A stretch of 40,672 nt of DNA from an uncultured Pseudorhodobacter sp. (GTDB taxonomy: Bacteria; Pseudomonadota; Alphaproteobacteria; Rhodobacterales; Rhodobacteraceae): contig CAMFLG010000001.1 of assembly GCA_945957495.1 (NCBI GenBank), positions 1-40,672 on the forward strand, read 5' to 3'. Position 1 is the stretch's first letter; the number at the start of each line of letters is the position of its first letter. The notes under the pieces are model-generated. The model ran no database searches. It was not told the origin of the DNA and saw only the letters and a program-made list of their open reading frames with translations. Of the stretch, positions 8,190-27,573 are shown in pieces. The translations under genes and the position numbers were made by a program.

Positions 8190-8198
8190 TCTTCACCT

Positions 8199-8250
8199 GT
8201 CTGATTGCTGTCTTGCTCGGGCTGAAAGCCCGATCGGAACAACATCAGAC
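8199..8250 (-). promoter_or_regulatory. mRNA stem-loop linking the leader stop codon to the downstream RBS
   Basis: GUCUGAU (contains the stop) pairs with AUCAGAC immediately 5' of the SD AGGUGA; GUUGU/ACAGC middle stem; inner hairpin UCGGGCU-UUC-AGCCCGA. Confidence 0.7.
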
Positions 8251-8574
8251 GCGGGGAGGCGGCGTATCAGACGCAGGGTGGAAGGCAGTCAAAAGGGCTG
8301 CCTGTGGCGGCAGGAAGCGCAGTCGAAGCGCAGACTGTGCGGTCATGACCGACACATCCGATGGCATCACGAACACCGAGCATGATGCGTAAGAGTGGCA
8401 ATTTGCCGGAGTTTGCATCTGCGCTGCGGCTGCAACCACAAAGGTTTGATGCGGCGCTTCATGGGTTTCGGCAACCGGTACCGTCGACAGAACAAGTGTC
8501 AAAATCACCAGAAGGGCTGACAGCAGGCTGCCAACCTTTCGGATAAGACACAAGATCTGGCCGACACCGCGCAT
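8245..8574 (-). CDS. CutF/DUF2946-like exported leader protein 1
   Basis: 109 aa from ATG 8574 (TGATG overlap); hydrophobic N-terminus, CHSYASC, C-terminal DTPPPRV. Confidence 0.72.
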   Translation of the reverse strand: MRGVGQILCLIRKVGSLLSALLVILTLVLSTVPVAETHEAPHQTFVVAAAAQMQTPANCHSYASCSVFVMPSDVSVMTAQSALRLRFLPPQAALLTAFHPASDTPPPRV

Positions 8575-9044
8575 CACATGATCCCATTTTCGCGCTGCAG
8601 TTCACGGACGTATAGGATGATCGACGCGATTTCGCCATCGGTCAGTTTTTGTTCAACGGGCAGCATCGACCCGAACGACCAGTGGTGCTGACGGGCGCCA
8701 TCCCGCACGGCAACAAGGAAAGCCGCATCTCCATGATGCGAGGGCTCGTAAATCTTGTGAACCAGTGGCGGTGCGATCCCATCCTGGCCAGCGGCGTTTG
8801 CCCCGTGGCACGATGCACAAACGGCATCAAAATAGGTCTTTCCAGCTGCGGCCTTAGCAGAGAGCGCTGCTGGCAACCGGACTTCGACCATGGCGTCCCC
8901 CGTCTTCATAGACGTGGTTTCAAGGGTTTGCACCGCCGAGCCAACAGGCGCGAATCGCGAAAAAAGCAAGAACGCAGCCCCCAAACAGGCAACGGCCAAC
9001 AAAATCCGCCATGTTTTCTTGACCTTCATGCCTGCCCTGCCCAT
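8574..9044 (-). CDS. Monoheme c-type cytochrome
   Basis: N-terminal TM, CASCH, APPLVHKIYEPSHHGD, HHWSFGSM. Start may be the second Met. Confidence 0.88.
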   Translation of the reverse strand: MGRAGMKVKKTWRILLAVACLGAAFLLFSRFAPVGSAVQTLETTSMKTGDAMVEVRLPAALSAKAAAGKTYFDAVCASCHGANAAGQDGIAPPLVHKIYEPSHHGDAAFLVAVRDGARQHHWSFGSMLPVEQKLTDGEIASIILYVRELQRENGIM

Positions 9045-9192
9045 TCCGGGTCTTGCTTTTTGTATATTAGAGAAACTTGCGTGCCGAGAATGGCACTGTC
9101 AAACAGTCAATCACCAAGACGGAGCGCATAGAAGTGCACGACCCCGAGCCCGGTATCGCTGATTCTTACGCTCAACTCAGAAGAGGGGTGCC

Positions 9193-9215
9193 ACCTTCCA
9201 GCGCTGGAACCTCAA
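9193..9215 (-). promoter_or_regulatory. Putative CueR-like operator upstream of the cytochrome c operon
   Basis: TTGAGG followed by the perfect dyad TTCCAGCGCTGGAA(GGT), same core as the copA/copZ boxes; -10 is weak. Confidence 0.55.
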
Positions 9216-9368
9216 GCAGATTTGGTTGAACTTTTTGTGATCCTTCTGCTGCCCGGCATTCCTGTCAACCCGGAACAACTTCACGCAAGAGGTGATCAGA
9301 GTTATTTGAGATCGGCAGAGATAATCAGACAATTTCCGGGCAACGACCCAAAGGGGAGCTCAGTCGAA

Positions 9369-9872
9369 ATGTACCTTCAAAGTCGCAGCCCATACGAATT
9401 TGATCTGCTGCTGCTGGCGTTCCCGATGCACTTCACTTGGGAAATTTTGCAGGCACCACTCTTTAGAAGCATGCAGGAGGTCACCCACATGGTTGGCATC
9501 AGAACATGTCTTCAGGCCACATTGGGCGACATGGCGATCATGCTTTTCGCCTACTGGTTGACAGCCTTGGTGGCAAGAAGCCGCCATTGGGTTGCCCGGC
9601 CAAGTCGCAGTACCATTGCAACGTGGCTTCTTAGCGGTCTTGCCATAACCATCGCCCTTGAATTCTATGGTACCGAGATCACTCACAGATGGACTTACAG
9701 CGCATCAATGTGGCGACTGCCGCTGGCCGGAACGGGCATTGCACCCGTGATGCAGTGGATCCCACTCCCCCTGCTGGTGCTATGGTACCTGCGCCGCTTG
9801 TCGGCAGCAGCGGATTGTTCTGAGGCGCCTTCATCAAACTTGGCCGGTCGGCAATCGAACGACAGCGCTTAG
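9369..9872 (+). CDS. Hypothetical multi-pass membrane protein
   Basis: ATG 9369 after AGGGGAG; HFTWEILQAPLF motif and about four TM segments. Confidence 0.7.
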   Translation: MYLQSRSPYEFDLLLLAFPMHFTWEILQAPLFRSMQEVTHMVGIRTCLQATLGDMAIMLFAYWLTALVARSRHWVARPSRSTIATWLLSGLAITIALEFYGTEITHRWTYSASMWRLPLAGTGIAPVMQWIPLPLLVLWYLRRLSAAADCSEAPSSNLAGRQSNDSA

Positions 9873-11237
9873 CCCGCCGCCAGTCCGGTTGCGCAGTTGG
9901 ATAGTGCCGCCATGAGCCTGAATGATGGTTCTGGCGATGGCCAGACCAAGACCAACCCCCCCTGTGTCGCGATTGCGGGACCCTTCCAGCCGCACGAAGG
10001 GTTCAAATACCGCCTCCAACTGATCCTCGGGCAAGCCCGGACCCTTGTCTGACACCATGATCACTGTGATCCCCGGTTCCTGCATCAGGCTGACCTCCGC
10101 GACGCCACCGTAGCGCACCGCGTTGTCGATCAGATTGCGCAGTGCGCGGTTGAGCGCATGGGGGCGCACCATCGTAGGCACCGGCAGTGAAAGGGCAAGG
10201 GACGCGCGGTCGCCACCCACGTCTCTAACAAGTTCACCCAGCATGGCAGCAAGATCAACCATGGCTGCGGGTTCCGTCTTGGCGACTCCCCTCGCAAACT
10301 CCAGCGTTGCTTCAACCATGGCCTGCATTTCCTCGACCAGCGTTTTCAGACGGACGCTATCCTCGGTCTCGTCCAGCATCTCGATCCGAAGGCGCATGGC
10401 GGTCAGTGGCGAGCGCAGATCATGGCTGAGTGCCGCAAGCATATGAGTGCGTTCGGCCACAAAGCGGGTCAAACGGTCTTGCATGCGGTTGAAGGCCTGT
10501 GTGGTATCGCGCACCTCTGATGGGCCGGTCAACGGCAGCGGGTTTGCATCCAGTCCGCGCCCCAGCCGGTCTGCTCCTACCGCCAGTGCGCTCATCGGGC
10601 CCACGATCCGACGCGCCGTTACCCAAGCCACCAAAGCAACGGCCACTACCATCAGGAGCAGCGGCAACAAGGCTTGAGGCGACAGTTGCAGGCCAGGCCG
10701 GATGAACATTGTGCGCACATTCAACCAATCTCCTTTGGCCAGTCGGATCGAAAGGGTCAATTCGACAGGCTCGGCATGGGCCGCCATCATCGCCTCATGC
10801 ATGGGCCTCATGGCCGCAGGTACACCGTCTGGTATGGCGAGAGGGTTCATGGCACGCGCATGGATATCCGCCAGAATTTCTCGGTTTGGTTGGCCGAGGA
10901 TCTCCCTGATCTGATCGAGAAAAGGTGCGGCGTCCGCACTGTTGTGCATTGCCTTTGGGCCGGAGCCCACTTCGAACCGTACAAGCGGCGAATTCGCCGA
11001 TCTAAGGATTTCTGGTCGGAGATCGGTGGGCGCATCGTCAAGCAGAAGAGCCACGTTTGCCGCCCGCCCTGCTGCCTCCAACCCAAGTGCTGCGCGAACT
11101 GCGCGGTTGCGTTCGTCGGTCAGCAGAATCAAACCAAGGCCCTGCGTCATGGCAAGCGCCAGCAGCAGCATGGCAAGCAATTGGCCCCCCACGGACTGGG
11201 GCATCAGCCGATAAAGAAAGTTGCGAAGCAAAATCAC
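9834..11237 (-). CDS. Sensor histidine kinase (HAMP, HisKA, HATPase)
   Basis: SHDLRSPL, NLIDNA, DKGPG, GGVGLGL; GTGA overlap with the regulator; Met/His patch MRPMHEAMMAAH in the periplasmic domain. Confidence 0.93.
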   Translation of the reverse strand: MILLRNFLYRLMPQSVGGQLLAMLLLALAMTQGLGLILLTDERNRAVRAALGLEAAGRAANVALLLDDAPTDLRPEILRSANSPLVRFEVGSGPKAMHNSADAAPFLDQIREILGQPNREILADIHARAMNPLAIPDGVPAAMRPMHEAMMAAHAEPVELTLSIRLAKGDWLNVRTMFIRPGLQLSPQALLPLLLMVVAVALVAWVTARRIVGPMSALAVGADRLGRGLDANPLPLTGPSEVRDTTQAFNRMQDRLTRFVAERTHMLAALSHDLRSPLTAMRLRIEMLDETEDSVRLKTLVEEMQAMVEATLEFARGVAKTEPAAMVDLAAMLGELVRDVGGDRASLALSLPVPTMVRPHALNRALRNLIDNAVRYGGVAEVSLMQEPGITVIMVSDKGPGLPEDQLEAVFEPFVRLEGSRNRDTGGVGLGLAIARTIIQAHGGTIQLRNRTGGGLSAVVRLPTGQV

Positions 11238-11959
11238 GGCAACTCCTTCACATCGGCGGCAAGGCTGTAGCCGCCGCCCCATACCGTGGCGATAAGTGCG
11301 GGTTTTGCCGGATCGGCCTCAATCTTGCGGCGCAAGCGGCTGATCTGATTGTCGATTGTGCGATCAAAGACCTGCGCCGCCCGGCCCGAGGTCAGATCAA
11401 GCAACTGCTCGCGGCTCAACACAAAGCGTGGTCGTTCCAGAAACACAGTCAACAGGCGGAACTCGGCGGTGGTCAAAGCGACATCTTCACCATCGGCATC
11501 GGTTAGGGTTCGGCGATCCGGGTCCAGCACCCAACGGTCGAACGCCAACCGATGGCCGGCAAGGCCGCCACCAGTCACCTCGGGCCGATCCGACCGGCGC
11601 AGGATCGCTTTGATCCGCGCCAGCAGTTCGCGCGGGTTGAAGGGCTTGGGCAAATAGTCATCGGCCCCGACCTCAAGCCCGACGATGCGGTCGGTTTCAT
11701 CGCCAAGGGCTGTCAGCATCAGGATCGGCATGTTGCCAGTAGCCCGCAACCGCCGACAGACCGAGAGCCCGTCCTCGCCAGGCATCATCACATCCAGCAC
11801 GATCAGATCGAATTGACCGACCTTCAGCGCCGCATCCATAGCCACGGCATTCGCGGCAGATGTCGCGCGCATGCCATTCTTCTCCAGATACCTGACCAGC
11901 GCATCGCGGATTTCGCGGTGGTCATCAACGATCAGGATATGAGGTGGGCTGCTTGACAT
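11234..11959 (-). CDS. OmpR-family response regulator
   Basis: ILIVDD, LDVMMPG, KPF, winged helix ending TVWGGGY; AGGAG RBS before ATG 11959. Confidence 0.94.
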   Translation of the reverse strand: MSSSPPHILIVDDHREIRDALVRYLEKNGMRATSAANAVAMDAALKVGQFDLIVLDVMMPGEDGLSVCRRLRATGNMPILMLTALGDETDRIVGLEVGADDYLPKPFNPRELLARIKAILRRSDRPEVTGGGLAGHRLAFDRWVLDPDRRTLTDADGEDVALTTAEFRLLTVFLERPRFVLSREQLLDLTSGRAAQVFDRTIDNQISRLRRKIEADPAKPALIATVWGGGYSLAADVKELP

Positions 11960-12012
11960 GATTTCTCCTGACCTAGACTCTAACCGATCGCGTCGCCCTC
12001 GCGCTTGGGCAT

Positions 12013-12060
12013 TTGTCGCAAACCGTCGCAAGACCCGCCCTTGCGACAATTTGATACAAA
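12013..12060. promoter_or_regulatory. Putative response-regulator binding sites in divergent promoter
   Basis: GTCGCAA direct repeat at 10-bp period (12015, 12025); TTGTCGCAA/TTGCGACAA perfect inverted pair; CGACAA/ATACAA at 10-bp period. Confidence 0.55.
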
Positions 12061-12139
12061 AGACCTGTTCGGCTGACAAACCTGTGGGACATCTGCCCCC
12101 CAAGTTGGCTTCATCGCAATTCCGATCAGGAGAGTCAGA

Positions 12140-12667
12140 ATGAAACGTTCAACCAAATTCGTCCTTGCCGCCGTTGCAGCCCTTGGTGTTGCCGCCGTTG
12201 CTGTGCCTGTGATCGCGCAGCAGGCGCAGATGCAGCATGGCGGAATGATGGGCGACGGCATGGGTATGATGGGCGGCCACGACGAGATGATGGGTGGCGG
12301 TATGATGGGTGGCGGCATGGGGATGATGGGCATGATGGGTGGTGCCCAAAGCTATGCCATGGCGACCTTTGATACCAACAAGGACGGCACCCTCAGCCCC
12401 GACGAAATGACGGCCGGGATCAAGGCCGAGCTCACGAAATACGACACTGATGCAAACGGCTCGTTGTCACTCGAAGAGTTCGCCGTGATGCATGCAGCCC
12501 ATACGCGGCCGATGACCGTGCGCGCCTTCCAGATGCATGACGCCGACGGCGACGCCCAGGTGACCGAAGCCGAGATGTCGGCGATGGCTGCGATGATGCA
12601 GGACCACATGGGTGGCCAGCAAGACGGTATGCCGGGCATGGGCAAGGGCATGATGGACAACAACTGA
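12140..12667 (+). CDS. Periplasmic EF-hand protein with Met/Gly-rich tracts
   Basis: Signal peptide; DTNKDGTLSPDE, DTDANGSLSLEE and DADGDAQVTEAE loops; GGMM repeats; AGGAG RBS. Confidence 0.88.
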   Translation: MKRSTKFVLAAVAALGVAAVAVPVIAQQAQMQHGGMMGDGMGMMGGHDEMMGGGMMGGGMGMMGMMGGAQSYAMATFDTNKDGTLSPDEMTAGIKAELTKYDTDANGSLSLEEFAVMHAAHTRPMTVRAFQMHDADGDAQVTEAEMSAMAAMMQDHMGGQQDGMPGMGKGMMDNN

Positions 12668-12674
12668 GACCAAA

Positions 12675-12715
12675 GCGGCCCCCGGCATCTGGCCGCAACA
12701 GGTTTCGGGGGCTGC
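12675..12715 (+). other. Intergenic GC-rich hairpin
   Basis: GCGGCCCCCGG pairs with TCGGGGGCTGC (two G-U pairs). Confidence 0.5.
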
Positions 12716-12739
12716 ACCATCACAGGATAGGAGGCTGCG

Positions 12740-12856
12740 ATGATGAACGGATACAACATGGGTTGGGGCATGGGTTTTGGCTGGCTTTGGATGACCGTCG
12801 TTCTGGTTGTGGTAAGTTTGGCTATCACCGCCATGATCAAATATCTGCGCAAGTGA
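12740..12856 (+). CDS. 38-aa single-pass membrane microprotein
   Basis: Below the ORF-track cutoff: MMNGYNMGWGMGFGWLWMTVVLVVVSLAITAMIKYLRK. Strong AGGAGG RBS, fills the operon gap, positive-inside C-terminus. Confidence 0.75.
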   Translation: MMNGYNMGWGMGFGWLWMTVVLVVVSLAITAMIKYLRK

Positions 12857-12875
12857 CCGGACAGGAAAAATCGCG

Positions 12876-13262
12876 ATGAGTTACACCTTCAACCGTCTGC
12901 TGACCGGGGTCAGCTTTGCCGAGGCCGACTTGCGCACCCGTAAGGCGTTGGGCGAAAGCGGCTTTGGCATTTTGACCGAAATCGATGTCGCCGCGACCAT
13001 GAAGAAAAAGCTGGATGTCGATATGACGCCCTATCTGATCCTTGGGGCATGCAACCCCAAAATGGCCTACCAAGCCATCGGGATCGAGCCGCGCGTCGGA
13101 GCGATGTTGCCATGCAATGTGATCCTGCGGGCGGTTGACGGCGGGGTAGAGGTCAGCGCGATTGACCCGGTCGCCTCAATGCAGGCCATCGACAATCCTG
13201 CCCTCCACGCCGTGGCGGGACAAGTGCGCGACCTTCTGGCGAAGGTGGTTGCTGCGATTTGA
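12876..13262 (+). CDS. DUF302 domain protein
   Basis: GFGILTEID, YLILGACNP, GAMLPCNV, SAIDP motifs. Confidence 0.9.
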   Translation: MSYTFNRLLTGVSFAEADLRTRKALGESGFGILTEIDVAATMKKKLDVDMTPYLILGACNPKMAYQAIGIEPRVGAMLPCNVILRAVDGGVEVSAIDPVASMQAIDNPALHAVAGQVRDLLAKVVAAI

Positions 13263-13290
13263 TGAGCTGGTTCCTGCACGCGAAAACGGC

Positions 13291-13321
13291 TTGACCTTCC
13301 AGGACGGTAAGGGGGCAAACT
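13291..13321 (+). promoter_or_regulatory. CueR-type promoter for the second Cu-ATPase
   Basis: TTGACC-19 bp-CAAACT containing ACCTTCC-AGGACG-GTAAGGG. Confidence 0.72.
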
Positions 13322-13367
13322 GCTAAAACACGTTCATGCGTTTCCGTTGCCGCCAAAGGAGCAGACT

Positions 13368-15740
13368 ATGTCCCCTTCCACCCCTCACGCGGCTCATGAC
13401 CATCCGACGTCCATGATGGCTTTAGATATTACGGCGGAACCCAAGGAGAACGGGCCGACGGCCATTGACCCAGTCTGCGGCATGACGGTCACGCTGAAGG
13501 CCGACACGCGGGTCGAACCTTATGGAGATCAGAAATTTCACTTCTGTTCCGAAAAATGCCAGACGAAATTCAAGGGCGACCCGTGGTTCTATGCATCTGG
13601 CAACGCGTCCAAGCGCGGCAAGGTGGTAGCCGTGGGGACGCAATACACCTGCCCGATGCATCCGCAGATTATCCGCGACGCGCCGGGGTCTTGCCCGCTC
13701 TGCGGCATGGCGCTGGAGCCGATCCTACCCTCGGACGCGCCCAGTGAAGAATTGACCGACTTTACCCGGCGCATGTGGATCAGCGCCGCCGCTGCTGTGC
13801 CACTGATTGTACTCACCATGGGACCGCTGATCGGCCTGCCTGCTCGCGACTGGGTCGGGCATCAGAATGCGATGTATCTGGAGTTTGCTCTGGCCACACC
13901 AATCATCCTTTGGGCGGCCCTGCCGTTTTTCCAACGCGGCTGGGACTCGATCCTGAACCGGTCGCCCAACATGTGGACGTTGATTTCGTTGGGCGTGCTT
14001 GCGGCCTACGGCTATTCGCTGTTGGCGACGTTTCTGCCAGGGGTATTTCCAGAACAATACCGCATGGGCGGAATGGTCGGCACCTATTATGAGGCGGCGG
14101 TGGTGATCGTGGCGCTGGTTTTTGTGGGCCAAGTGCTGGAACTACGGGCGCGCGAACGCACGGGGGATGCGATCCGTGCCCTGCTGGACCTGGCCCCGAA
14201 GACCGCGCGGCGCATCCTGCCCGATGGCACCGAATACGACGCACCTTTGGAAAACATCATGGCAGGCGACCAACTGCGAGTACGCCCTGGCGACGCAGTG
14301 CCGGTGGATGGCGTTGTGGTGTTCGGCACCTCTTCCTTGGACGAAAGCATGCTGACCGGCGAGTCTATGCCGGTCGAAAAAGGGTACGGCGACAAGGTGA
14401 CCGGGGCCACGATCAACAAGAACGGTTCCTTGATAATCGAGGCCGAAAAGGTTGGCGCGGATAGCGTGCTGGCGCAGATTGTCGCAATGGTCTCGGGTGC
14501 CCGAAGGTCTCGTGCGCCCATTCAAGGTTTGGCAGACCGGGTGTCGGCGATCTTTGTTCCGATGGTTGTGGTCATTGCCGTTGCAGCCTTTGTGGCATGG
14601 ATGGCATTTGGCCCCGCACCTGCCATGGTTTTCGCCTTCGCTTCGGCAGTGTCGGTGCTGATCATCGCGTGCCCCTGCGCGCTTGGTCTAGCCACCCCGA
14701 TCTCGATCACCACCGCCGCCGGGCGCGGGGCGCAAGCTGGTGTGCTGATCAAGGACGCCGAGGCGTTGGAACGGATGGCGGGCGTCGATACCTTGATCGT
14801 GGACAAGACCGGGACGTTGACGCTTGGCAGGCCAACGCTGACCGATACGGTGGCGTTGGGGGCGGTGACTGAGGCCGACATTCTGGCTTTTGCCGCCGCG
14901 TTGGAGCGTGGCTCGGAACACCCGCTTGCCGAGGCCATCGTGGACGGAGCGGCTTCAAAAGCCGTGCGCAAGCTGGACGCCACGGAATTCGAGGCGGTAA
15001 CCGGCAAGGGCGTGAAAGGGATAGTTGAGGGGCGCAAGGCCGCACTCGGCAATGCCGCGATGATGCAGGAACTGGGGCTGGACACGGCGAGCGTTGAAGC
15101 GCGGGCCGATGCCCTACGCACCTCTGGCAAGACTGCGATGTTTATCGCTATCGACGGCGCTTTGGCCGGGATTGTGGCTGTGGCCGATCCGATCAAGGAC
15201 AGCACTATTCCCGCGATCGCAGCCCTGCATGCGCTGGGTCTGCGGGTGATCATGGCAACGGGCGACAATGAGCGCACCGCAAAAGCCGTTGCCGCCAAGC
15301 TGGGCATTGATGAGGTGCGCGCCGGTGTGCTGCCCGAAGACAAGAAGGCGCTGATCGACGAATTGAGGGCGCAGGGGCGCAAGATCGCAATGGCAGGTGA
15401 CGGGGTGAACGACGCACCCGCCCTTGCCGCCGCCGATGTCGGGATCGCGATGGGCACAGGCGCCGATGTGGCCATGGAAAGCGCAGGGATCACGCTGCTC
15501 GGCGGTGATCTGATGGGCATCGTGCGGGCGCGCAAACTGGCCAAGGCAACGCTGCGCAACATCAAGCAGAACCTGTTCTTTGCCTTTGCCTACAACGCGG
15601 CAGGCATCCCGATTGCCGCGGGGGTGCTGTATCCGCTGACCGGAACCCTTCTGTCGCCAATGATTGCAGCGGCAGCGATGAGCCTGTCGTCGGTCTCTGT
15701 TATCACCAACGCCTTGCGACTGCGGCGCGTTGTGCTGTGA
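13368..15740 (+). CDS. Cu(I)/Ag(I) P1B-1 ATPase with YHS and heavy-metal-binding N-terminal domains
   Basis: DPVCGM...FCSEKC, YTCPMHP...CPLCGM, CPC, DKTGT, YN, MSLSS; AAGGAG RBS before ATG 13368. Confidence 0.95.
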
Positions 15741-16525: not shown

Positions 16526-16540
16526 GCGCCACGCCGCGCA

Positions 16541-16981: not shown

Positions 16982-17006
16982 CTGAAATCGCTCTCAGACA
17001 TTGTCA

Positions 17007-17528: not shown

Positions 17529-17549
17529 AGCGGTATCCTTTCGCCGAAG

Positions 17550-17577
17550 GGCCTGCCCGCGCGATGCCGGGCAGGCC
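17550..17577. other. Intergenic hairpin between the oxidase and tlpA-like genes
   Basis: GGCCTGCCCG-8 nt-CGGGCAGGCC perfect 10-bp stem. Confidence 0.6.
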
Positions 17578-17590
17578 TATTGCGTGGCGA

Positions 17591-19069
17591 TCAGGCTGAC
17601 ACCGCGAACTCTGTCATCATGCCGGTCGACAGGTGCGGCATATGGTGGCAATGCAGCATCCAGCGCGCCGCCTCGCCCGCGTCCAGCGCAACGGTGACCA
17701 TCGCCATGGGCGGCACATAGACCGTGTCCCGCATAGCGCCGTTGATGGCCTTTCCATTGATGTTGACCACTTGGAACGCATGGCCATGCAGGTGCATCGG
17801 ATGGCCCATCATCGACATATTGTGGAACATCAACTCAACACGCTCGCCGCTGGTGGCGATGATCGGTTTATGGGTGTCCCAGGTCTGGCCATCAATCGTC
17901 CAGAGATAGGGCTGCATAGAGCCTGCCAACATGATCATGTGGCTGCGGTCCACCGGACGGGCGGCAAGTGGGTTCGCTGCTTGCAGCAGCATTTCCTGCG
18001 CCATGTCGGTGTCGAAGGCGGGAGACTCCGCGTCAGACATTCCGGCGATCTTGCTGACCTGCGCACCGGTGGTGGCGAGGATAAGGCCTGTGCGTTCACG
18101 CGCACCTTCGCGCAAGGCCAGCACCGGGAAAGCGCCGTCGCCGGGCAGGTCAATCTCGATATCCAGCCGTTGCGCCATCGCCATGCCAAACCGTGTACCG
18201 GGCATCGGCACGATCGCATGGCCATCCACCGCCACCAGCCGCGCAGTCACGCCTGTGTCGATCCAGAACGTCGTGGCCGAAGCTGCGTTGACGATCCTCA
18301 ACCGAACACGCCCGCCCTTTTCCACCGAGACTACTTCTGGGTCGGAAAGGGTGCGGTCATTGGCAAGGTAAGCGTCGAAATTGAAATCATTCAGGTCCAT
18401 GGCCATGCCACCCATCGCCATACCAGACATATCCATTCCCGACATGTCACCACCGCTCATATCCATGCCGGACATGCCAGTGTCAGTTTTGCCTGCGACG
18501 CCCATGGCCGACATGTCGTGACCCGCCATGCCGCCAGTGATTTCGGCCAGCACTTCCTCGGCAGGGCGGAATGAGAAATCATGCAGGAACATGACTACCT
18601 CTTGCCGGTCTGCGACGATATCCGCAGCCGAGCGCACGATCAATGGTGCGGCTAAAAGGTTCATCTCTTGCACCGGCACATGGCTGTGCATCCAGTGAGT
18701 GCCGGGGTTGGGCGCATAGTCAAAACTGCGCATCTCGCCGGTTTTTAGCAGGGGCATCGGCAGGTTCGGCACACCGTCCTGCACGTTGGGGGGGAGTTGG
18801 CCATGCCAGTGGATGATGGTTTCGACATCCAAAGAGTTGGTCAGGTCCACGCGAAACTGCTGACCCGGATCAAGGATCAGACCTTGCCCACCTGCCCCGT
18901 TGATCAGCCCGTAAACCGTGGCTGCCTTGCCATCAATTTCCAACACGCGGGTGGCAGCGGTCAGGCTCAGTGGTGCGGATTGTCCGAACGCAAGTCGCGG
19001 AAGCGCTGTAGATGCAGCCATCGCTGCCGATGCGGCAATAAAGCCGCGACGTGTAAGATCGTGTGCCAT
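17591..19069 (-). CDS. Tat-exported multicopper oxidase (CutO/CueO-like)
   Basis: TRRGFI, HWHG, WMHSH, HPMHLHGH, HCHHMPHLSTGM; Met-rich linker. ATG 19069 is 6 nt from GGAG. Confidence 0.95.
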   Translation of the reverse strand: MAHDLTRRGFIAASAAMAASTALPRLAFGQSAPLSLTAATRVLEIDGKAATVYGLINGAGGQGLILDPGQQFRVDLTNSLDVETIIHWHGQLPPNVQDGVPNLPMPLLKTGEMRSFDYAPNPGTHWMHSHVPVQEMNLLAAPLIVRSAADIVADRQEVVMFLHDFSFRPAEEVLAEITGGMAGHDMSAMGVAGKTDTGMSGMDMSGGDMSGMDMSGMAMGGMAMDLNDFNFDAYLANDRTLSDPEVVSVEKGGRVRLRIVNAASATTFWIDTGVTARLVAVDGHAIVPMPGTRFGMAMAQRLDIEIDLPGDGAFPVLALREGARERTGLILATTGAQVSKIAGMSDAESPAFDTDMAQEMLLQAANPLAARPVDRSHMIMLAGSMQPYLWTIDGQTWDTHKPIIATSGERVELMFHNMSMMGHPMHLHGHAFQVVNINGKAINGAMRDTVYVPPMAMVTVALDAGEAARWMLHCHHMPHLSTGMMTEFAVSA

Positions 19070-19072
19070 CAT

Positions 19073-19155
19073 ATGCTCCGTTTGGCTTCGGTGAAGCCAT
19101 TTCAAACTGGAATGCGCCGCAGACTTGCAGCGCCGTTTCAAGTATGACGAAGCAT
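19073..19155 (-). promoter_or_regulatory. SD-sequestering mRNA structure upstream of the oxidase
   Basis: AUGCUUCGU (19155-19147, inside the leader) pairs with ACGGAGCAU (19081-19073, the SD). Encloses hairpins GCGCUGCA/UGCGGCGC and UGGCUUC/GAAGCCA. Confidence 0.75.
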
Positions 19156-19509
19156 GTCGGGTGGACGTTGTGCAGGATCAGGAATGAGCGAGGTCCACGC
19201 AGGACCGACTTCCCCCAACCAAGTTGTCGCCTCGATCCTTGCAACCCGCCCAACGACAACGCCACCTTCGAGCCTGTCCGACCCGAGGCACAGTGTGGCA
19301 CAAAGTGAACCATTCATTTTAGAATGCTGGGGATCGCCATGGCTTGTTTGATCTTGGACATGTCCTGCATGGATCATCGTCATGGACATTTCATGCGCCT
19401 GAGCGCTCATCCCCAAGTGGGATGTGTTCAAAGCAAAAATCAGCGCCAGCACAAGAAGACTGTGCAGCGTCGAAACAAATTCAAGAACGGTGCGGCTTCT
19501 TGAGTGCAT
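19138..19509 (-). CDS. CutF/DUF2946-like exported leader protein 2
   Basis: Signal-like N-terminus, His/Met-rich segment, CATLC (CxxxC), PDPAQRPPD tail; directly upstream of the multicopper oxidase. Confidence 0.82.
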   Translation of the reverse strand: MHSRSRTVLEFVSTLHSLLVLALIFALNTSHLGMSAQAHEMSMTMIHAGHVQDQTSHGDPQHSKMNGSLCATLCLGSDRLEGGVVVGRVARIEATTWLGEVGPAWTSLIPDPAQRPPDMLRHT

Positions 19510-19515
19510 GGGTTC

Positions 19516-19544
19516 GAGATAGCCCTACGTGGTCGACCCGGCAA
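19516..19544 (-). promoter_or_regulatory. Putative sigma70 promoter giving a leaderless transcript
   Basis: TTGCCG-17 bp-TATCTC-6 bp-ATG; no SD. Confidence 0.55.
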
Positions 19545-19637
19545 GTAACGTCGTCGAGTGTTTCAAGTCGCGACGGCGGGAACGTGCTGGGAATGCTTTC
19601 TGGTGGGAGTTGGCGGATCAATTCGCGGCGGAACTAT

Positions 19638-22600
19638 TCAGGCTCCTCCAGCAAGCTGCATCTTTGCTGGAACGGCGGCAGTGCGCGCCAATTCCCAGCC
19701 TTTGACCAGCGAATATACTGCCGGGATCACCACCAGTGTCAGCACGGTTGAACTGACCATGCCCCCAATCATCGGCACGGCGATGCGCTGCATCACCTCG
19801 GAACCCGTGCCATGCGCCCAGAGGATCGGCATCAACCCGGCCATGATCGCCACCACGGTCATCATCTTGGGGCGCACGCGTTCCACCGCGCCGACCATGA
19901 TCGCGGCATTCAGATCGGCACGCGTGAAGACTCGGGTTTCCGCTGCGGCCTTGGCCCGGGCTTCAATCAGCGCATGATCAAGGTAAATCAACATGATTAC
20001 CCCGGTTTCTGCGGCCACCCCTGCCAAGGCGATAAAGCCGACCGCCACGGCGACCGAGGTGTTGAAGCCAAGAAACCACATCAGCCAGATGCCCCCCACC
20101 AGCGCAAAGGGTAAAGACAGCATCACGATCAGGGTTTCCGTCAGCGCGCGAAAGTTCAGGAACAGCAGCAGAAAAATCAGCGCCAAAGTCACCGGAACCA
20201 CAATTTTCAACCGCTCGGTGGCGCGTTCCAGATATTCAAACTGGCCGCTCCAGGCCACCGAATACCCCGTTGGCAATACCACCTGCGCCTCTACCGCCGC
20301 CTTGGCGTCGGCGACATAGCCACCCAGATCGCGGCCAGAAATATCGACAAAGATATAGACCGCCAACTGGCCGTTTTCGGTGCGAATGGTCGTCGCCCCC
20401 CGTGTCAGTTCTACTGTGGCGACAGCCCCCAAAGGCACCGACCCACCACCCGGCAGGGCCACCTGCACATCGCGGGCTATCGCCTGCGGGTCGGAGCGTT
20501 GGTCACGGGGATAGCGGACGGCGACGCCGTAACGTTCGCGTCCTTCAACCGTCTGGGTGATCACTTCGGACCCCAAAGCCATCGAAATGACCTCCTGCAC
20601 TGCCGCGACCGACAGCCCATAGCGGCCAAGGGCGGCACGGTCAGGTGTAATGTCGAGGAAGTAACCGCCAATCACCCGTTCGGCATAGGCGCTCGATGTG
20701 CCGGGCACTTTGCGGACGACGGCTTCAATTTCGCGCGCCACACCTTCCATCTTGGCCAGATCAGTGCCGTAGATCTTGATGCCAACCGGGGTGCGGATGC
20801 CGGTAGACAGCATATCGGTGCGCGCCCGGATCGGCATGGTCCAGGCGTTCGACACACCGGGAAATTGCAGTGCCGCGTCCATTTCATCCTTCAAGCTTTC
20901 CGACGTAACGCCCGCCCGCCATTCCGATTTCGGTTTCAGATTGATGATGGTTTCAAACATCTCGGTCGGGGCCGGATCCGTGGCCGTTTGCGCCCGACCG
21001 GACTTGCCGAACACCGATTGCACCTCGGGGAAACTTTTGATGATGCGGTCTTGCATCTGCATCAGTTCCGCCGCTTTGGTCACCGAAATGCCTGGCAGCG
21101 TGGTTGGCATATACATCAAGGTGCCCTCGTCCAGTGCGGGCATGAACTCGCTGCCCAACTGTCGCGCGGGCCAGACTGTAACCACCAATGCCGCGAGGGC
21201 GATCATGATCGTCAGACCCCGCGCCTTCAAAACACCCCGAATGATCGGCCTATACAGCGCGATCAGCAGGCGGTTCACCGGGTTCTTGTGTTCCGGCACG
21301 ATATGGCCGCGCACAAAAATCACCATCAACGCAGGCACCAACGTCACCGACAAGATCGCCGCCGCAGCCATCGCGAAAGTCTTGGTAAAGGCCAGCGGGC
21401 CAAATAACTTGCCCTCCTGGTTTTCCAGCGTGAAGATCGGCAGAAACGACACGGTGATGATCAGCAGGCTGAAAAACAGTGCCGGTCCAACTTCTGCCGC
21501 TGCCTTGATCAGAATTTCGACACGCGGGGTGCCGGGTTCTGCGCGTTCCAGATGTTTATGCGCGTTCTCGATCATCACAATCGCTGCGTCGATCATCGCG
21601 CCGATGGCAATGGCAATGCCACCAAGGCTCATGATGTTCGAGCCAAGACCCAGAAACTTCATCGCCGAAAACGCCATCAGGATGCCAACCGGCAGCATGA
21701 TGATCGCGACCAGAGCCGAGCGGACATGCAGTAGGAAAATGATGGTGACGGCGGCCACAACCAGACTTTCCTCCAGCAATGTGCCTTTCAGGGTTTCAAT
21801 GGCAGATTCAATCAAAGTGGATCGGTCATAGACCGGCACGATTTCCGTGCCCTCGGGCAAGGACTTCTGCACATCTGCCAAGGCGGTCTTGGCATTGTCG
21901 ATCACCGTCAACGCGTTCGATCCCACCCGTTGCAGCACGATGCCACTGGCAACCTCCCCGTCGCCGTTTAATTCAGTGATACCGCGCCGCTCATCTGGAA
22001 CGATTTCGACTTGTGCCACATCCGACAGCCGCAGCGGCACGCCGGATTTGGTCATAAGGGTGATGTTTTCGATATCGGCCGTGCCCTTCAGATAGCCGCG
22101 CCCGCGCACCATGAATTCAAATTCCGAGATTTCCACCGTGCGCCCACCGGTATCCATGTTGCTGTCACGAACAGCCTTACCGATATCGGCCAGCGTCACC
22201 CCCTGCGCCCGCATCCGCGCCGGATCGACGACGATGGAATATTGCTTCACAAAGCCGCCAACACTGGCAACTTCCGACACACCATCGGCCTTTGATGCCG
22301 CAAAGCGCACCACCCAATCCTGCAAAGACCGCAGTTCCGCCAGTGACAACTCCTTGCCGACCAGCGCGTATTGATAGACCCAGCCCACCCCGGTTGCGTC
22401 CGGCCCAAGTGCTGGCGTTACGCCATCCGGCAGGCGGCTCGCTGCGGCGTTAAGGTATTCCAGCACCCGGGATCGCGCCCAATAGGGGTCTACGCCATCC
22501 TCAAAAATCACATAGACGAACGACACTCCGAAGAAGCTGAACCCCCGTACCACCTTGGACCTTGGCACCGTCAGCATCGCAGTCGTCAGCGGATAGGTCA

Positions 22601-22793
22601 CCTGATCCTCGACCACTTGCGGCGCTTGGCCGGGGTAATCTGTCAACACGATCACCTGCACGTCAGACAGATCCGGGATCGCGTCCAACGGCAGGGTGCG
22701 GATCGCGTATACTCCGCCCGCCACGGCAACGGCAGCGGCAAACAGGATCAACACCAGATTGCGTGCCGACCAGCCGATCAGTTTGGCGATCAT
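19638..22793 (-). CDS. cusA: CusA-type heavy-metal RND efflux permease
   Basis: LDAIPDLSDVQV, LGPDATGVGW, AMIDAAIVMIEN, Met triad context (LMYM, TEMFET, WTMPI), ERVRPKMMT. Confidence 0.96.
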   Translation of the reverse strand: MIAKLIGWSARNLVLILFAAAVAVAGGVYAIRTLPLDAIPDLSDVQVIVLTDYPGQAPQVVEDQVTYPLTTAMLTVPRSKVVRGFSFFGVSFVYVIFEDGVDPYWARSRVLEYLNAAASRLPDGVTPALGPDATGVGWVYQYALVGKELSLAELRSLQDWVVRFAASKADGVSEVASVGGFVKQYSIVVDPARMRAQGVTLADIGKAVRDSNMDTGGRTVEISEFEFMVRGRGYLKGTADIENITLMTKSGVPLRLSDVAQVEIVPDERRGITELNGDGEVASGIVLQRVGSNALTVIDNAKTALADVQKSLPEGTEIVPVYDRSTLIESAIETLKGTLLEESLVVAAVTIIFLLHVRSALVAIIMLPVGILMAFSAMKFLGLGSNIMSLGGIAIAIGAMIDAAIVMIENAHKHLERAEPGTPRVEILIKAAAEVGPALFFSLLIITVSFLPIFTLENQEGKLFGPLAFTKTFAMAAAAILSVTLVPALMVIFVRGHIVPEHKNPVNRLLIALYRPIIRGVLKARGLTIMIALAALVVTVWPARQLGSEFMPALDEGTLMYMPTTLPGISVTKAAELMQMQDRIIKSFPEVQSVFGKSGRAQTATDPAPTEMFETIINLKPKSEWRAGVTSESLKDEMDAALQFPGVSNAWTMPIRARTDMLSTGIRTPVGIKIYGTDLAKMEGVAREIEAVVRKVPGTSSAYAERVIGGYFLDITPDRAALGRYGLSVAAVQEVISMALGSEVITQTVEGRERYGVAVRYPRDQRSDPQAIARDVQVALPGGGSVPLGAVATVELTRGATTIRTENGQLAVYIFVDISGRDLGGYVADAKAAVEAQVVLPTGYSVAWSGQFEYLERATERLKIVVPVTLALIFLLLFLNFRALTETLIVMLSLPFALVGGIWLMWFLGFNTSVAVAVGFIALAGVAAETGVIMLIYLDHALIEARAKAAAETRVFTRADLNAAIMVGAVERVRPKMMTVVAIMAGLMPILWAHGTGSEVMQRIAVPMIGGMVSSTVLTLVVIPAVYSLVKGWELARTAAVPAKMQLAGGA

Positions 22794-24280
22794 GGCTGTG
22801 CCTCCACCGGGGTAAGCGCCGATAGCGCGGCTTTCAGGTTGCTTTCCGCGTCAATCAGGAAATTGGCTGACACGACCACCGTTTCGCCCTCGGCCACGCC
22901 TTTGCTGATCTCGACCATGCCAGCACCGCGCATCCCCACCTGCACATCTCGCGGCTCAAACCGCCCCTCGCCCAGATTGACAATCACAACCTGACGGTCG
23001 CCGCTATCAATCACGGCAGAATCCGGCACAGTGACCACCGCAGCACCACCTCCGGCTGCGATTTCGACGTCGGCATACATATGCGCAATCATCGCGCCAT
23101 CCGGGTTCGGCAGTTCAACACGAATTTTCGCGGTGCGGGTTTCGGCCTGAATTTCAGGATAAATCTCGTCGACCTTGCCGATGAACTCTCGTCCCGGCAG
23201 GCTGCGAAATCGCACGGTTGCCGCCGCCCCGCGCTGCACCTGCGCCAGTTCATATTCCGGCACATCCGCGATGATCCAGACGGTCGAGGTATCGGCGATG
23301 CGAAATAACGTCTCGCCCGCTGCGGCCATCATGCCGTCCACCGCCATCCGTTCCAGGACCACGCCGCCTTGCGGGGCCATCAGCGTAACCGAAAGCGGCG
23401 GTTTGCCAGTTGTCTCAATCTGCGCGATCATCTCCTCAGGTACGCCAAGGTTCAACAAGCGCTGCAAACTGCCAGCCGCCTTTGCCTTGCCGCCAATGCG
23501 CAAATCCGCTGCATACTGCGCCCCGGCAGATGCAAACTCCTTGGCGTACAGTGTCACCAATGGTTGCCCGGCCCGGATCGGTGCCCCTGTTGTCACATCG
23601 GCGACCTTTTCGACAAACGCCTCGGTGCGCAGGGAAATCACACTGACCTTGCGCTCGTCATGCTCGACCACGCCTGGCACGATGATCGGCTGACTGATCG
23701 TGGACCGAGTGGCCAGAGTGGTTTTCACCCCCGTTCGTTGAATCTTGCCTGCCGAAACGGTGACAGTCGATCCATCCGCCTCTTCCCCATCGTAGACTGG
23801 AAGATAGTCCATCCCCATCGAGTCTTTCTTTGGGGTTGGCGAGGTATCGGGAAGTCCCATTGGATTGCGGTAATAAAGGATACGTTTTTCATCCGCCGTC
23901 GCTGGCACGGCCGTGGCGACGCCCGCGTCTGCCACGGCTTGGTCAGCCTCTTTCGGTGGATCGTCAAAACTGACATCCTGACTGGCCAGCACGGCCACAT
24001 AGGCGCGGCCATCCGCCGCAGTCTTTGGTGCGAATGAATAGGCGGCCTCATCCGGGTGGCGGTAATAGATGACTGCCCCTTCCGGGACAGCCACTTTCAA
24101 GGTTTCAGTGCTACTTGTCGCCATCGCTTCCGCGTCACCGCCAAAGAGCCGCGACGCATAAGTTGTCACCAAGGCGGGGATATCGGCCGGAGCCACGCCT
24201 TGGTCCCCAGCCCAAATCCCGGCAAAACCCGCGGATCCAGCGATCAGCCCCACCATCAGGGTCTTGCCGAGAACGCTCAT
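22790..24280 (-). CDS. cusB: CusB-type RND periplasmic adaptor
   Basis: YYRNPMG...KKDSMGMDYLPVY, membrane-fusion protein core, ANFLIDAESNL; ATGA overlaps at both ends. Confidence 0.93.
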   Translation of the reverse strand: MSVLGKTLMVGLIAGSAGFAGIWAGDQGVAPADIPALVTTYASRLFGGDAEAMATSSTETLKVAVPEGAVIYYRHPDEAAYSFAPKTAADGRAYVAVLASQDVSFDDPPKEADQAVADAGVATAVPATADEKRILYYRNPMGLPDTSPTPKKDSMGMDYLPVYDGEEADGSTVTVSAGKIQRTGVKTTLATRSTISQPIIVPGVVEHDERKVSVISLRTEAFVEKVADVTTGAPIRAGQPLVTLYAKEFASAGAQYAADLRIGGKAKAAGSLQRLLNLGVPEEMIAQIETTGKPPLSVTLMAPQGGVVLERMAVDGMMAAAGETLFRIADTSTVWIIADVPEYELAQVQRGAAATVRFRSLPGREFIGKVDEIYPEIQAETRTAKIRVELPNPDGAMIAHMYADVEIAAGGGAAVVTVPDSAVIDSGDRQVVIVNLGEGRFEPRDVQVGMRGAGMVEISKGVAEGETVVVSANFLIDAESNLKAALSALTPVEAQP

Positions 24281-24678
24281 TTCTGCACGCCGAGGATCAG
24301 CTCGCCCTGCACCGTCTCTGCTTCACCCTGCACTTTGGCTGCGATCTGAAACCTCCAGTTCCCTGCCATCGTTAGATCGGCCTTGAACTGGTATTGCCCG
24401 GGAATGTCTGACGCCACCGCTTCCACCGGGGTGGTCATCCCTTCCATGCCTTCAGGAGCCATATCGAGGCGTGTCGTGAAAATCACCGCGTCGGTGACCG
24501 GCGTGTTTGTCCGCATATCGGTCAAGCTGACCGATATGATCGCCCCATCACCGGGGTGCAGGGCGTTGCTGATGATTTTGAACGCATAGTCTTCGGGGGC
24601 AGCTTGTGCCGCAAAGGCCGCCACAAAGCTGAGAGCCTGCGCTAGCACTAGGCTGCGCAACAATTGTTTGGTGTTCAT
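24277..24678 (-). CDS. Periplasmic FixH/YtkA-like protein
   Basis: Signal peptide from ATG 24678; RLDMAPEGMEGMT, PGQYQF, LTMAGNW, AKVQGE. Confidence 0.85.
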   Translation of the reverse strand: MNTKQLLRSLVLAQALSFVAAFAAQAAPEDYAFKIISNALHPGDGAIISVSLTDMRTNTPVTDAVIFTTRLDMAPEGMEGMTTPVEAVASDIPGQYQFKADLTMAGNWRFQIAAKVQGEAETVQGELILGVQK

Positions 24679-24690
24679 GATAAAACTTTC

Positions 24691-24803
24691 GACTGTCAAA
24701 GCCGCGCAGTTGCGCGATACCGGCTTGGCATTTACCAAGCCGCGCTTACCGCCCGGCGTGAGTGCCGCGCAGTTTACGGGTGCGTTTAGCACCCATGACA
24801 GTC
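24691..24803 (-). promoter_or_regulatory. Multi-branch mRNA structure between leader 3 and the YtkA-cusBA operon
   Basis: GACUGUCA (overlaps the stop) pairs with UGACAGUC immediately 5' of the weak SD GAAAG; inner hairpins GGGUGC/GCACCC and CGGCUUGG/CCAAGCCG. Confidence 0.68.
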
Positions 24804-25131
24804 AGACTTTGGGAGGTCTTCGTAACCCACTGCCTTCCAAGGAAGGCAAAGTTGGATTCGCTGAAAATTCAAAGCGCACGCTCTGAACAATGGGGTGGAA
24901 GTTAGGTTTGGCCGTCGAGGGTGCAACGGCCGCAGGCACTGACAGGCAGGGGACGACCAAAGGGCAATCAGGCATCTTGGCACAGCTTTGCGATGTGCAG
25001 GGCGTACCATCATCCATTTGCATCATCGGCGAGGTTACGGCAGTAACCGCGGCATATGTTTCTTGGGCCGGGGCAACGATCATCGTTGCCAGCGTCAAAA
25101 CCAAACCCAACATGCCTAATAACCTGCTCAT
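24802..25131 (-). CDS. CutF/DUF2946-like exported leader protein 3
   Basis: 109 aa from ATG 25131; signal peptide, MMQMDD, CTSQSCAKMPDCPLVVPC, C-terminal GLRRPPKV. Confidence 0.75.
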   Translation of the reverse strand: MSRLLGMLGLVLTLATMIVAPAQETYAAVTAVTSPMMQMDDGTPCTSQSCAKMPDCPLVVPCLSVPAAVAPSTAKPNFHPIVQSVRFEFSANPTLPSLEGSGLRRPPKV

Positions 25132-25222
25132 CCGAACGTGTTTGCCCGGATGGTCGCCGTCTCGCAAGTCACAATTTGCGGAGCGGCGCTTTGCGAGGGT
25201 GCTGGACTGGACCACCGCATCG

Positions 25223-27532: not shown

Positions 27533-27563
27533 TTCCTAATGTCTCTAGCAACTATAGGTTCAA
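27533..27563 (-). promoter_or_regulatory. CadR/PbrR-type promoter-operator
   Basis: TTGAAC-19 bp-TAGGAA with the dyad CTATAG-TTG-CTAGAG, resembling PbrR/CadR operators; lies between the divergent ATPase and regulator. Confidence 0.8.
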
Positions 27564-27573
27564 GAGGTTTCTC

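What the first reader, a model, noticed from the sequence alone, without database searches (positions are those of the whole stretch)
8190..25131. Three independent CutF/DUF2946-like arrest-peptide leaders, each gating a different operon
Seen: ORFs 8245-8574, 19138-19509 and 24802-25131 are 109-123 aa and show no obvious sequence similarity by eye. They share one grammar: export signal, Cys cluster, roughly 30-40 aa spacer, terminal PPPR/RPP, then a stem pairing the leader end with the next RBS region. Known: R. capsulatus CutF (CxxxC, Pro-rich tail, cutO stem-loop) and Bordetella CruR (CxxC, RAPP) control downstream translation. Inference: a translational metal-sensing layer running parallel to CueR, with different Cys spacings (Cx5C, Cx3C, four Cys) possibly tuning metal or threshold.
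Basis: partly seen in the sequence, partly recalled or inferred. Interest (0 to 1): 0.88.

Follow-up and report, generated by a model that had tools for sequence, protein, structure and literature searches.

The report
Three CutF-like copper leader peptides
Three small exported peptides in a bacterial copper-resistance island are built like the known copper sensor CutF and likely switch on the next gene by stalling their own ribosome; the family, its multiple copies per genome and these gene neighbourhoods are already catalogued, so this is a well-supported but ordinary new example.

Summary
The three ORFs are real, all on the minus strand, and fit the published 'CutF-like' rule. None reaches the DUF2946 HMM cut-off. 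Relatives share about 20-40% identity yet keep the last-Cys-to-last-Pro distance fixed: 42 (L1), 43 (L2, as in CutF) and 45/51 (L3). Leader-end/RBS pairing exceeds background in all three families, and a modelled ribosome on the prolines opens each RBS. Corrections: L1 lies inside its operon, overlapping an upstream cytochrome c stop and behind a CueR-type dyad, so it is likely in series with CueR. L2 and L3 have their own promoter-like sites abutting the ATG (likely leaderless). L3's fourth Cys is variable, and its stem only abuts the RBS here. Metal tuning is untested. Prior art: Ozturk 2021 reports two CutF-like genes per genome on average, with variant Cys motifs, and its supplement lists cytochrome c-CutF-cytochrome c', CutF-YtkA-CusB-CusA and tandem leaders. 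The scan noted this kind before on other DNA (310 notes, one a three-leader island). New member of a known kind; no stalling measured.

The parts
9195..9209 (.). CueR-type dyad about 150-165 nt upstream of the cytochrome c gene that heads the L1 operon (CueR identity inferred from likeness to the dyad at the copZ promoter)
   Evidence: 2 exact matches in the window (2914-2928 and here), 0 in 100 shuffles; present in L002, L022, L023, L072; not found in L067-L069
8574..9044 (-). monoheme cytochrome c upstream of L1; its stop codon overlaps the L1 start (TGATG)
8245..8574 (-). L1, CutF-like leader: hydrophobic N-terminus, C59-H-x4-C65 (-48/-42 from last Pro), P-7, PPPRV stop
   Evidence: dN/dS 0.22-0.36
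8194..8261 (-). L1 stem: Pro codons, last codons and stop pair with the AGGUG tract before cytochrome c' (helices 8250-8238 with 8212-8199, p 0.93-0.98; 8261-8257 with 8198-8194, p 0.58), inner hairpin 8233-8217
   Evidence: RBS opening cost 14.3 to 6.7 kcal/mol with a modelled ribosome
7527..8189 (-). cytochrome c'-like protein, first gene behind L1; followed by a multi-heme cytochrome c like dehydrogenase cytochrome subunits (7564-6548), a weak FixH-like gene (6551-6123), a weak MerT-like gene (6119-5649) and a PBP2 paralog (5652-3709)
19516..19544 (-). promoter-like site of L2 (TTG hexamer, 17 nt, TA hexamer) ending 6 nt before the ATG; no SD; predicted leaderless start
19138..19509 (-). 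L2, CutF-like leader: Met/His-rich linker, C70xxxC74 (-47/-43), P-7, RPP, six-residue tail; same spacing as R. capsulatus CutF
19073..19155 (-). L2 stem: codons just after PP (19155-19147) pair with the GGAG tract of the oxidase (19081-19073), p 0.92; two inner hairpins
   Evidence: opening cost 8.9 to 5.1 kcal/mol
17591..19072 (-). Tat-exported multicopper oxidase (CutO-like), followed by a TlpA-type redoxin (17528-17007) and a VTT/DedA membrane protein (16981-16541)
25139..25167 (-). promoter-like site of L3 (TTG hexamer, 17 nt, CA hexamer) ending 7 nt before the ATG; no SD; predicted leaderless start
   Evidence: 13 of 14 L3-family sequences against 46 of 1,660 background ORFs
24802..25131 (-). 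L3, CutF-like leader: Cys at -62/-57/-51 (conserved) and -45 (variable), GLRRPP, two-residue tail
   Evidence: dN/dS 0.18-0.34
24691..24803 (-). 123-nt intergenic RNA: four hairpins closed by a helix from the L3 stop codon to the ytkA initiation region (five-way junction)
   Evidence: 95.8% of cells paired, 5 of 37 pairs with a double change, slid controls 30-45%; no Rfam match
19638..24678 (-). genes behind L3: YtkA/FixH-like protein (24678-24277), CusB-like adaptor (24280-22790), CusA-type RND pump (22793-19638)

Best explanation
L1, L2 and L3 are three CutF-like leader peptides that likely act as ribosome-stalling copper sensors, each predicted to unmask the ribosome-binding site of the next gene. 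Shown from sequence: hydrophobic N-terminus, Cys ligands at a family-fixed 42-51 residues from the terminal prolines, conserved PP, and a helix joining the codons after PP or the stop codon to the next initiation region. Inferred by analogy with CutF: each peptide is exported co-translationally through Sec; when the prolines reach the peptidyl-transferase centre the Cys pair is at the periplasmic mouth of SecY; without copper the chain is pulled through, the ribosome leaves and the helix re-forms; with copper bound the pause lengthens, the ribosome holds the 5' arm open and the downstream gene is translated. L2 and L3 would be read from their own leaderless transcripts, independent of CueR. 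L1 would be reached by translational coupling from the cytochrome c gene on a CueR-type transcript, and so act after CueR. Confidence by leader: L2 about 0.85, L3 0.75, L1 0.65.
For: Leaders travel with the target when loci are fetched by the downstream gene: 25 of 27 cytochrome c' loci, 23 of 28 assessable family-level oxidase loci, 5 of 5 assessable ytkA loci, and 0 of 10 loci of a 41-47% identical oxidase paralog. Anchored on the last Pro, L1 family Cys-48 24/26, Cys-42 25/26, PPP-R 26/26; L2 family Cys-47 and Cys-43 30/36, RPP 35/36; L3 family Cys-51 15/16, RPP 16/16, at median identity 21%, 20% and 39%. CutF has C69/C73 and P109...PPP114-116, i.e. -47/-43/-7, as in L2; its authors place such Cys at the SecY vestibule. 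CruR also needs a conserved spacing. Leader-end/RBS complementarity, mean z -2.1 (n 19), -2.0 (n 23), -3.6 (n 14) against -0.06 for 250 gene pairs of this genome. A modelled ribosome lowers RBS opening cost by 7.6, 3.8 and 4.0 kcal/mol; the background 90th percentile is 1.8 (n 90); the two leaderless cytochrome c' loci have open RBSs (1.3, 2.0). The L1 model has no confident fold beyond the N-terminal helix (pTM 0.29).
Against: No stalling, copper binding or regulation was measured. The helices include the last codons or the stop, so an ordinary terminating ribosome would open them too; folding cannot separate regulated stalling from plain coupling. Pairing is not universal: z below -1.5 in 11 of 19, 15 of 23 and 11 of 14 family members, and raw duplex energy of the L1 family is only borderline against background (p 0.055). 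dN/dS of L2 is 0.73-0.76 on few changes. One L1 relative (L002) has lost the second Cys. In this genome L3's helix stops short of the purine tract. RPP in L2 and L3 is neither CutF's PPP nor the RAPP/RGPP shown to arrest in vitro. Relatives are not independent samples, so p-values overstate.
Confidence: 0.75

Rival explanations
1. They are small periplasmic copper-binding peptides, and the stems give ordinary, unregulated translational coupling to the next gene.
For: The stems include stop codons or last codons and would be opened by normal termination. L1 is itself coupled to an upstream gene like an ordinary operon member. Met/His-rich linkers could bind metal.
Against: Only the Cys pair, P-7 and PP are conserved, at a fixed distance over an unconserved linker without indels, which a free chaperone would not need. 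No confident mature fold. CutF acts only in cis and is not detectable in cells.
Confidence: 0.11
2. They stall the ribosome but report the periplasmic thiol-disulfide or export state rather than a metal; most plausible for L1, whose targets are c-type cytochromes that need reduced CxxCH motifs.
For: The CutF model itself invokes disulfide formation as the pulling force. The island carries DsbA-like and TlpA-like genes. L1 gates cytochromes rather than a copper pump or oxidase.
Against: The L1 operon lies behind a dyad like the one at copZ; L2 and L3 head a multicopper oxidase and a CusA-type pump; His next to the first Cys in 21 of 26 L1 relatives suits a metal site.
Confidence: 0.09
3. One or more works with CruR polarity: stalled by default and released by copper, which shuts the downstream genes.
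For: CruR and CutF act in opposite directions. L3's 123-nt structured spacer is long, like CruR's 162 nt.
Against: The targets are detoxification genes; the motifs are PPP/RPP rather than RAPP; CruR-type CxxC/RxPP leaders in this genome head other genes.
Confidence: 0.05

Closest known systems
CutF of Rhodobacter capsulatus, cutFOG operon (PMC8456105, PMC9973294, bioRxiv 10.1101/2025.02.05.636593)
   Same: Size, export signal, Cys pair, Pro-rich end, SD-shielding stem. L2 has the same CxxxC at -47/-43, P at -7 and a Tat multicopper oxidase downstream; L1 has the same PPPR-x-stop end.
   Different: L2 lacks CutF's two extra upstream Cys and ends RPP plus six residues; no CutG follows. L1 has Cx5C and lies inside an operon; L3 has three or four Cys and a 123-nt five-way junction. 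Direct sequence comparison with CutF was not made (sequence not fetched).
Rule-defined 'CutF-like' proteins (Ozturk 2021 Table S3; Ozturk 2023 list D, 5,334 proteins in 2,804 proteomes, 29 clusters)
   Same: All three meet the rule. The table lists cytochrome c-CutF-cytochrome c' (8 rows of the 44 seen, e.g. Cohaesibacter, Actibacterium, Ruegeria), CutF-cytochrome c'-..-PBP (Tabrizicola), CutF-YtkA-HlyD-ACR_tran (many rows) and tandem leaders (Afipia P52-10, B. diazoefficiens blr4930/blr4934).
   Different: In the passages read, the papers do not analyse stems, Cys-to-Pro distances, promoters or coupling for these subgroups.
CruR (Bp2923) of Bordetella pertussis, DUF2946/PF11162 (PMC9426467; arrest shown in vitro in PMC12992588)
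   Same: Small exported uORF with Cys motif and terminal PP at a conserved spacing.
   Different: CxxC and RAPP, 45 residues between motifs, Rho-dependent shut-off by copper, signal peptide dispensable, start site 45 bp upstream, always first in the operon. None of the three matches PF11162.

Membership tests
CutF-like (rule of Ozturk 2023) | Under 150 aa | tested here: met
   109, 123, 109 aa; rule
CutF-like (rule of Ozturk 2023) | PP within 15 residues of the C-terminus | tested here: met
   tails of 2, 6 and 2 residues after the last Pro
CutF-like (rule of Ozturk 2023) | Sec signal peptide by SignalP | tested here: inconclusive
   SignalP not available; basic N-region plus hydrophobic stretch 2.6-3.0 in all three; AxA-like site in L2, L3 and most L1 relatives, but the window's L1 has Thr at that position
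CutF-like (rule of Ozturk 2023) | [quoted passage not shown] | tested here: met
   55, 65 and 123 nt
CutF-like (rule of Ozturk 2023) | Recovered by the authors' jackhmmer profiles | not testable with these tools
   profiles not held; the same gene contexts are in their table
CutF (R. capsulatus type) | CxxxC about 43 residues before the last Pro | tested here: met
   met by L2 only (-47/-43); L1 and L3 have variant motifs, which the 2021 paper admits
CutF (R. capsulatus type) | Stem-loop shielding the downstream SD | tested here: met
   predicted for L1 and L2; abutting for L3 in this genome, covering in relatives; computed, not probed
CutF (R. capsulatus type) | Copper-induced stalling at the prolines, acting in cis | not testable with these tools
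   needs toeprinting, profiling or fusions
DUF2946 / PF11162 (CruR) | Score above the Pfam cut-off of 23.7 bits | tested here: not met
   no hit for the three; 0 of 51 family members over the cut-off, 7 with 12-19 bits
DUF2946 / PF11162 (CruR) | CxxC and RAPP motifs | tested here: not met
   Cx5C/PPPR, CxxxC/RPP, Cx4Cx5Cx5C/RRPP
DUF2946 / PF11162 (CruR) | First gene of the operon | tested here: not met
   not met by L1 (overlaps or abuts cytochrome c in 16 of 27 loci); likely met by L2 and L3 through their own promoter-like sites

The most novel reading that the evidence does not exclude
L1 defines an operon-internal stalling checkpoint wired in series with CueR: cytoplasmic copper turns the transcript on, ribosomes are handed from cytochrome c to the Cx5C leader by stop-start overlap, and only periplasmic copper (or the periplasmic thiol state) licenses translation of cytochrome c', a multi-heme cytochrome and a PBP2, a two-compartment AND gate; L2 and L3 are CueR-independent leaderless sensors, L3 with its own five-way-junction RNA.
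Probability: 0.35. Interest if true: 0.55.

Novelty: new member of a known kind. Interest (0 to 1): 0.3.

Why it matters
Only CutF and CruR have been tested, and they act in opposite directions. This island offers three subfamilies side by side, with natural leaderless variants (L018, L019) and a fixed Cys-to-Pro ruler, so one host can test whether Cys spacing sets metal choice or threshold, whether RPP stalls like PPP, and whether an internal leader works in series with CueR. It extends a described system and does not reveal a new principle.

Tried and rejected
Pfam, NCBIfam and Rfam gave no family for the leaders or their spacers. ESM Atlas for L1 gave unnamed clusters (best 0.96) and one cluster with 26% DUF2946 at rank 29 (0.94, 127 shared features): a lead only; its structure search gave nothing above TM 0.47. 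No Atlas answer was obtained for L3 and L2 was not tried. The generic promoter/terminator scan found nothing beyond chance and missed the sites at L2 and L3; many promoters of this group lack -7T (PMC7703639, search listing and abstract start only). The first duplex test used an unfiltered background and some wrong start codons; it was redone with a coding filter and composition control; its cognate-versus-swapped comparison (cognate better than row mean in 15/19, 22/26, 10/14) is confounded by kinship. Metatranscriptome contigs of relatives: run X1 has pieces over L2 (18975-19484) and L3 (24710-25115), and X2 (RNA only guessed) over 24695-25072, both stopping before ytkA; but X1 also has one contig running 7961-9339, past the presumed L1 promoter, contigs show no start or strand, and DNA cannot be excluded, so I draw nothing from them. 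Rejected: that the cytochrome c' or YtkA contexts are undescribed (they are in the 2021 supplement); that the MerR gene at 27574 is CueR (CadR/ZntR-like); that L3 serves zinc because it follows zntA (upstream gene varies; pump is CusA-type). Rows dropped: L014 gave no hit in the rerun (counted only); L041, L046, L056, L075 are cut upstream; L089 was not assessed by the script. Complex prediction, fold search and the representative-library search were not used.
Full report
Setting. The window is contig 1 of an 82% complete genome; the nearest named relatives are Cypionkella and other Paracoccaceae. It is a metal-resistance island: two CopA-type and one ZntA-type ATPase, CopZ, a cueR cut by the contig end (318-1; E 1e-36), a CadR/ZntR-like regulator, a multicopper oxidase, a CusBA pump, cytochromes c and thiol-disulfide proteins.

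Observation. The three ORFs translate as described, on the minus strand. L1 precedes a cytochrome c'-like gene by 55 nt, L2 a Tat multicopper oxidase by 65 nt, L3 a YtkA-like gene, CusB and CusA by 123 nt. A grammar fitted to them gives 8 hits among 10,322 genome ORFs and 1 to 4 hits in control sequence of the same size. L1 and L3 are under purifying selection (dN/dS 0.22-0.36 in 3 pairs; 0.18-0.34 in 10 pairs); L2 is inconclusive (0.73-0.76 in 3 pairs, 1 pair saturated).

Families. Direct searches found 21, 9 and 30 relatives. To avoid circularity I also fetched loci by the downstream gene and read the upstream DNA. A leader (hydrophobic N-terminus, PP near the end) was present in 18 of 20 family-level and 7 of 7 genus-level cytochrome c' loci, 23 of 28 assessable family-level oxidase loci, 12 of 16 assessable genus-level oxidase loci of 60% identity or more, 0 of 10 loci of a 41-47% paralog, and 5 of 5 assessable ytkA loci. 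All 13 loci found with the L3 profile have ytkA next. Within families the linker is not conserved (median identity 21%, 20%, 39%), but positions counted from the last Pro are: L1 Cys-48 (24/26), His-47 (21/26), Cys-42 (25/26), Pro-7 (17/26), PPP-R (26/26); L2 Cys-47 and Cys-43 (30/36), Pro-7 (27/36), RPP (35/36); L3 Cys-62 and -57 (12/16), Cys-51 (15/16), Cys-45 (10/16), RPP (16/16). CutF has C69, C73 and P109EPEGPPPRL118, the L2 geometry exactly. Deep profiles align at probability 90.9 (L2-L3), 59.7 (L1-L3) and 24.7 (L1-L2), so remote common ancestry is as likely as independent origin; the test is partly circular.

RNA. Segments from leader end to next start fold below shuffles. In L1 the last codons and stop pair with the region ending in AGGUG; in L2 the codons after PP pair with GGAG; in L3 a 7-bp helix from the stop codon ends 13 nt before the ATG. 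Across families, complementarity between the 21 nt after the last Pro and the initiation region has mean z -2.1, -2.0 and -3.6 against -0.06 in 250 gene pairs of this genome; window values are -2.4, -2.8, -3.5. Blocking a ribosome footprint on the last Pro lowers the cost of opening the RBS from 14.3 to 6.7, 8.9 to 5.1 and 7.3 to 3.3 kcal/mol; it helps by over 1 kcal/mol in 14/24, 21/34 and 13/18 family members and in 23/90 background pairs. The L3 spacer is a conserved five-way junction in 13 aligned sequences: 95.8% of cells paired, 5 of 37 pairs with double changes (13 of 500 shuffles reach this), slid controls 30-45%; the sequences are close kin, so covariation is modest. These results say that a ribosome at the leader end favours downstream initiation; they do not show regulated stalling.

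Wiring. L1's ATG overlaps the stop of an upstream cytochrome c; the start lies within -4 to +3 nt of that stop in 16 of 27 leader loci, 191 nt away in one, and no such gene lies within 400 nt in 10. In two loci the leader is absent and the two cytochromes are 14-20 nt apart with an open RBS. A dyad matching the one at the copZ promoter lies at 9195-9209 (2 exact matches in the window, 0 in 100 shuffles) and recurs at a like distance in L002, L022, L023 and L072 but not in most other loci; that it binds CueR is inferred from recalled consensus and position, and a paper search gave no usable site definition (listing only). L2 and L3 carry a -35/-10-like pair ending 6-7 nt before the ATG, with no SD: 13 of 14 L3-family and 21 of 28 L2-family sequences under 80% identity (loose pattern; strict 13 and 8), 0 of 19 L1-family, 65 of 1,660 background ORFs (strict 46). 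The pattern was read off the window first, and the start sites are unmapped. Two leaderless oxidase loci sit behind a cueR-like gene instead (L043, L092).

Prior art. PMC8456105 (passages; supplementary Table 3, 44 of about 53 rows holding Cytochrom_C_2 and 16 of the rows holding YtkA) reports nearly 3,000 CutF-like proteins, five in R. capsulatus, two per genome on average in distinct neighbourhoods, with variant Cys motifs. Its table holds CutF between a cytochrome c and Cytochrom_C_2 in 8 rows seen, a Tabrizicola row with CutF, Cytochrom_C_2 and a PBP, many CutF-YtkA-HlyD-ACR_tran rows, and tandem leaders (Afipia rows 126-127; blr4930/blr4934); I inferred that forward-strand runs are printed in reverse order. 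PMC9973294 (part 1, sections 6, 13 part 1 and 25, passages, supplement search; its list file was not among the supplements held and may name further contexts) gives 5,334 proteins and the mechanism. bioRxiv 2025.02.05.636593 (abstract, results part 1, discussion, passages; supplements closed) shows PPP- and EF-P-dependent stalling. PMC9426467 (passages) defines CruR; PMC12992588 (passages) shows CruR arrest in vitro. 'Leaderless' does not occur in PMC8456105 or PMC9426467 and occurs once, unrelated to cutF, in the preprint; searches for leaderless with cutF, or with arrest peptide and Alphaproteobacteria, gave 2 and 0 papers (the second paper, a review, seen as listing only), and a search for CutF-like with uORF or cytochrome c gave only the 2023 paper among the 20 listed of 117. 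The scan holds 310 notes with the key words in at least 268 genomes, including a three-leader island, serial leaders and leaderless leaders; none matched this DNA. These notes are leads, not support.

Verdict. Works like CutF: likely (0.75). Member of the rule-defined CutF-like set: yes, with the signal peptide judged by heuristic. Member of DUF2946/CruR: no. Metal tuning by Cys spacing: open. What I did not find in print is detail: the subfamily rulers, the leaderless promoter geometry, the L3 junction, and the coupled, CueR-downstream position of L1. Interest 0.3.

Noticed in passing
window 3709-5652 (-): A PBP2/MrdA-type transpeptidase lies inside the L1 operon; Tabrizicola piscis has a like arrangement in the 2021 table, linking the island to cell-wall synthesis.
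   Followed up: partly
window 1-318 (-), 2860-2928, about 13292: cueR cut by the contig end behind copA; CueR-type dyads at the divergent copA/copZ promoters and before the second CopA.
   Followed up: partly
window 27543-28014: MerR regulator divergent from zntA is CadR/ZntR-like, with its own dyad near 27543.
   Followed up: partly
G000 C4:15022-15405, C93:8199-8627, C315:660-1004, C350:3721-4110: Four more leaders of the CruR type (CxxC with RAPP or RGPP), three with the same promoter-at-ATG pattern; downstream ORFs look like PepSY-TM, PCuAC and an exported protein by eye.
   Followed up: partly
L018, L019: Cytochrome c abuts cytochrome c' with no leader and an open RBS: natural leader-free variants of the L1 operon.
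   Followed up: yes
L043, L092, L058, L059, L061, L099, L081: Close oxidase relatives without a leader: behind a cueR-like gene (L043, L092), divergent from the EF-hand gene (L058, L059, L061, L099), or behind an MFS gene and a degenerate PepSY-like remnant (L081).
   Followed up: partly
L005-L010, L070, L071, L073: L1 sub-lineage with 147-166 nt structured spacers and no upstream cytochrome c.
   Followed up: no
window 19638-24280: CusBA-type pump with a YtkA-like partner and no outer-membrane factor in the operon.
   Followed up: no
window 39910-40662 (-): Type II/IV secretion ATPase (VirB11/TrbB-like) at the contig end, suggesting the island rides a conjugative element.
   Followed up: no
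window 3251-3535 (-), 12140-12667 (+): Small Met-rich exported proteins (HdeA-like; EF-hand repeat), possible periplasmic copper sponges.
   Followed up: no
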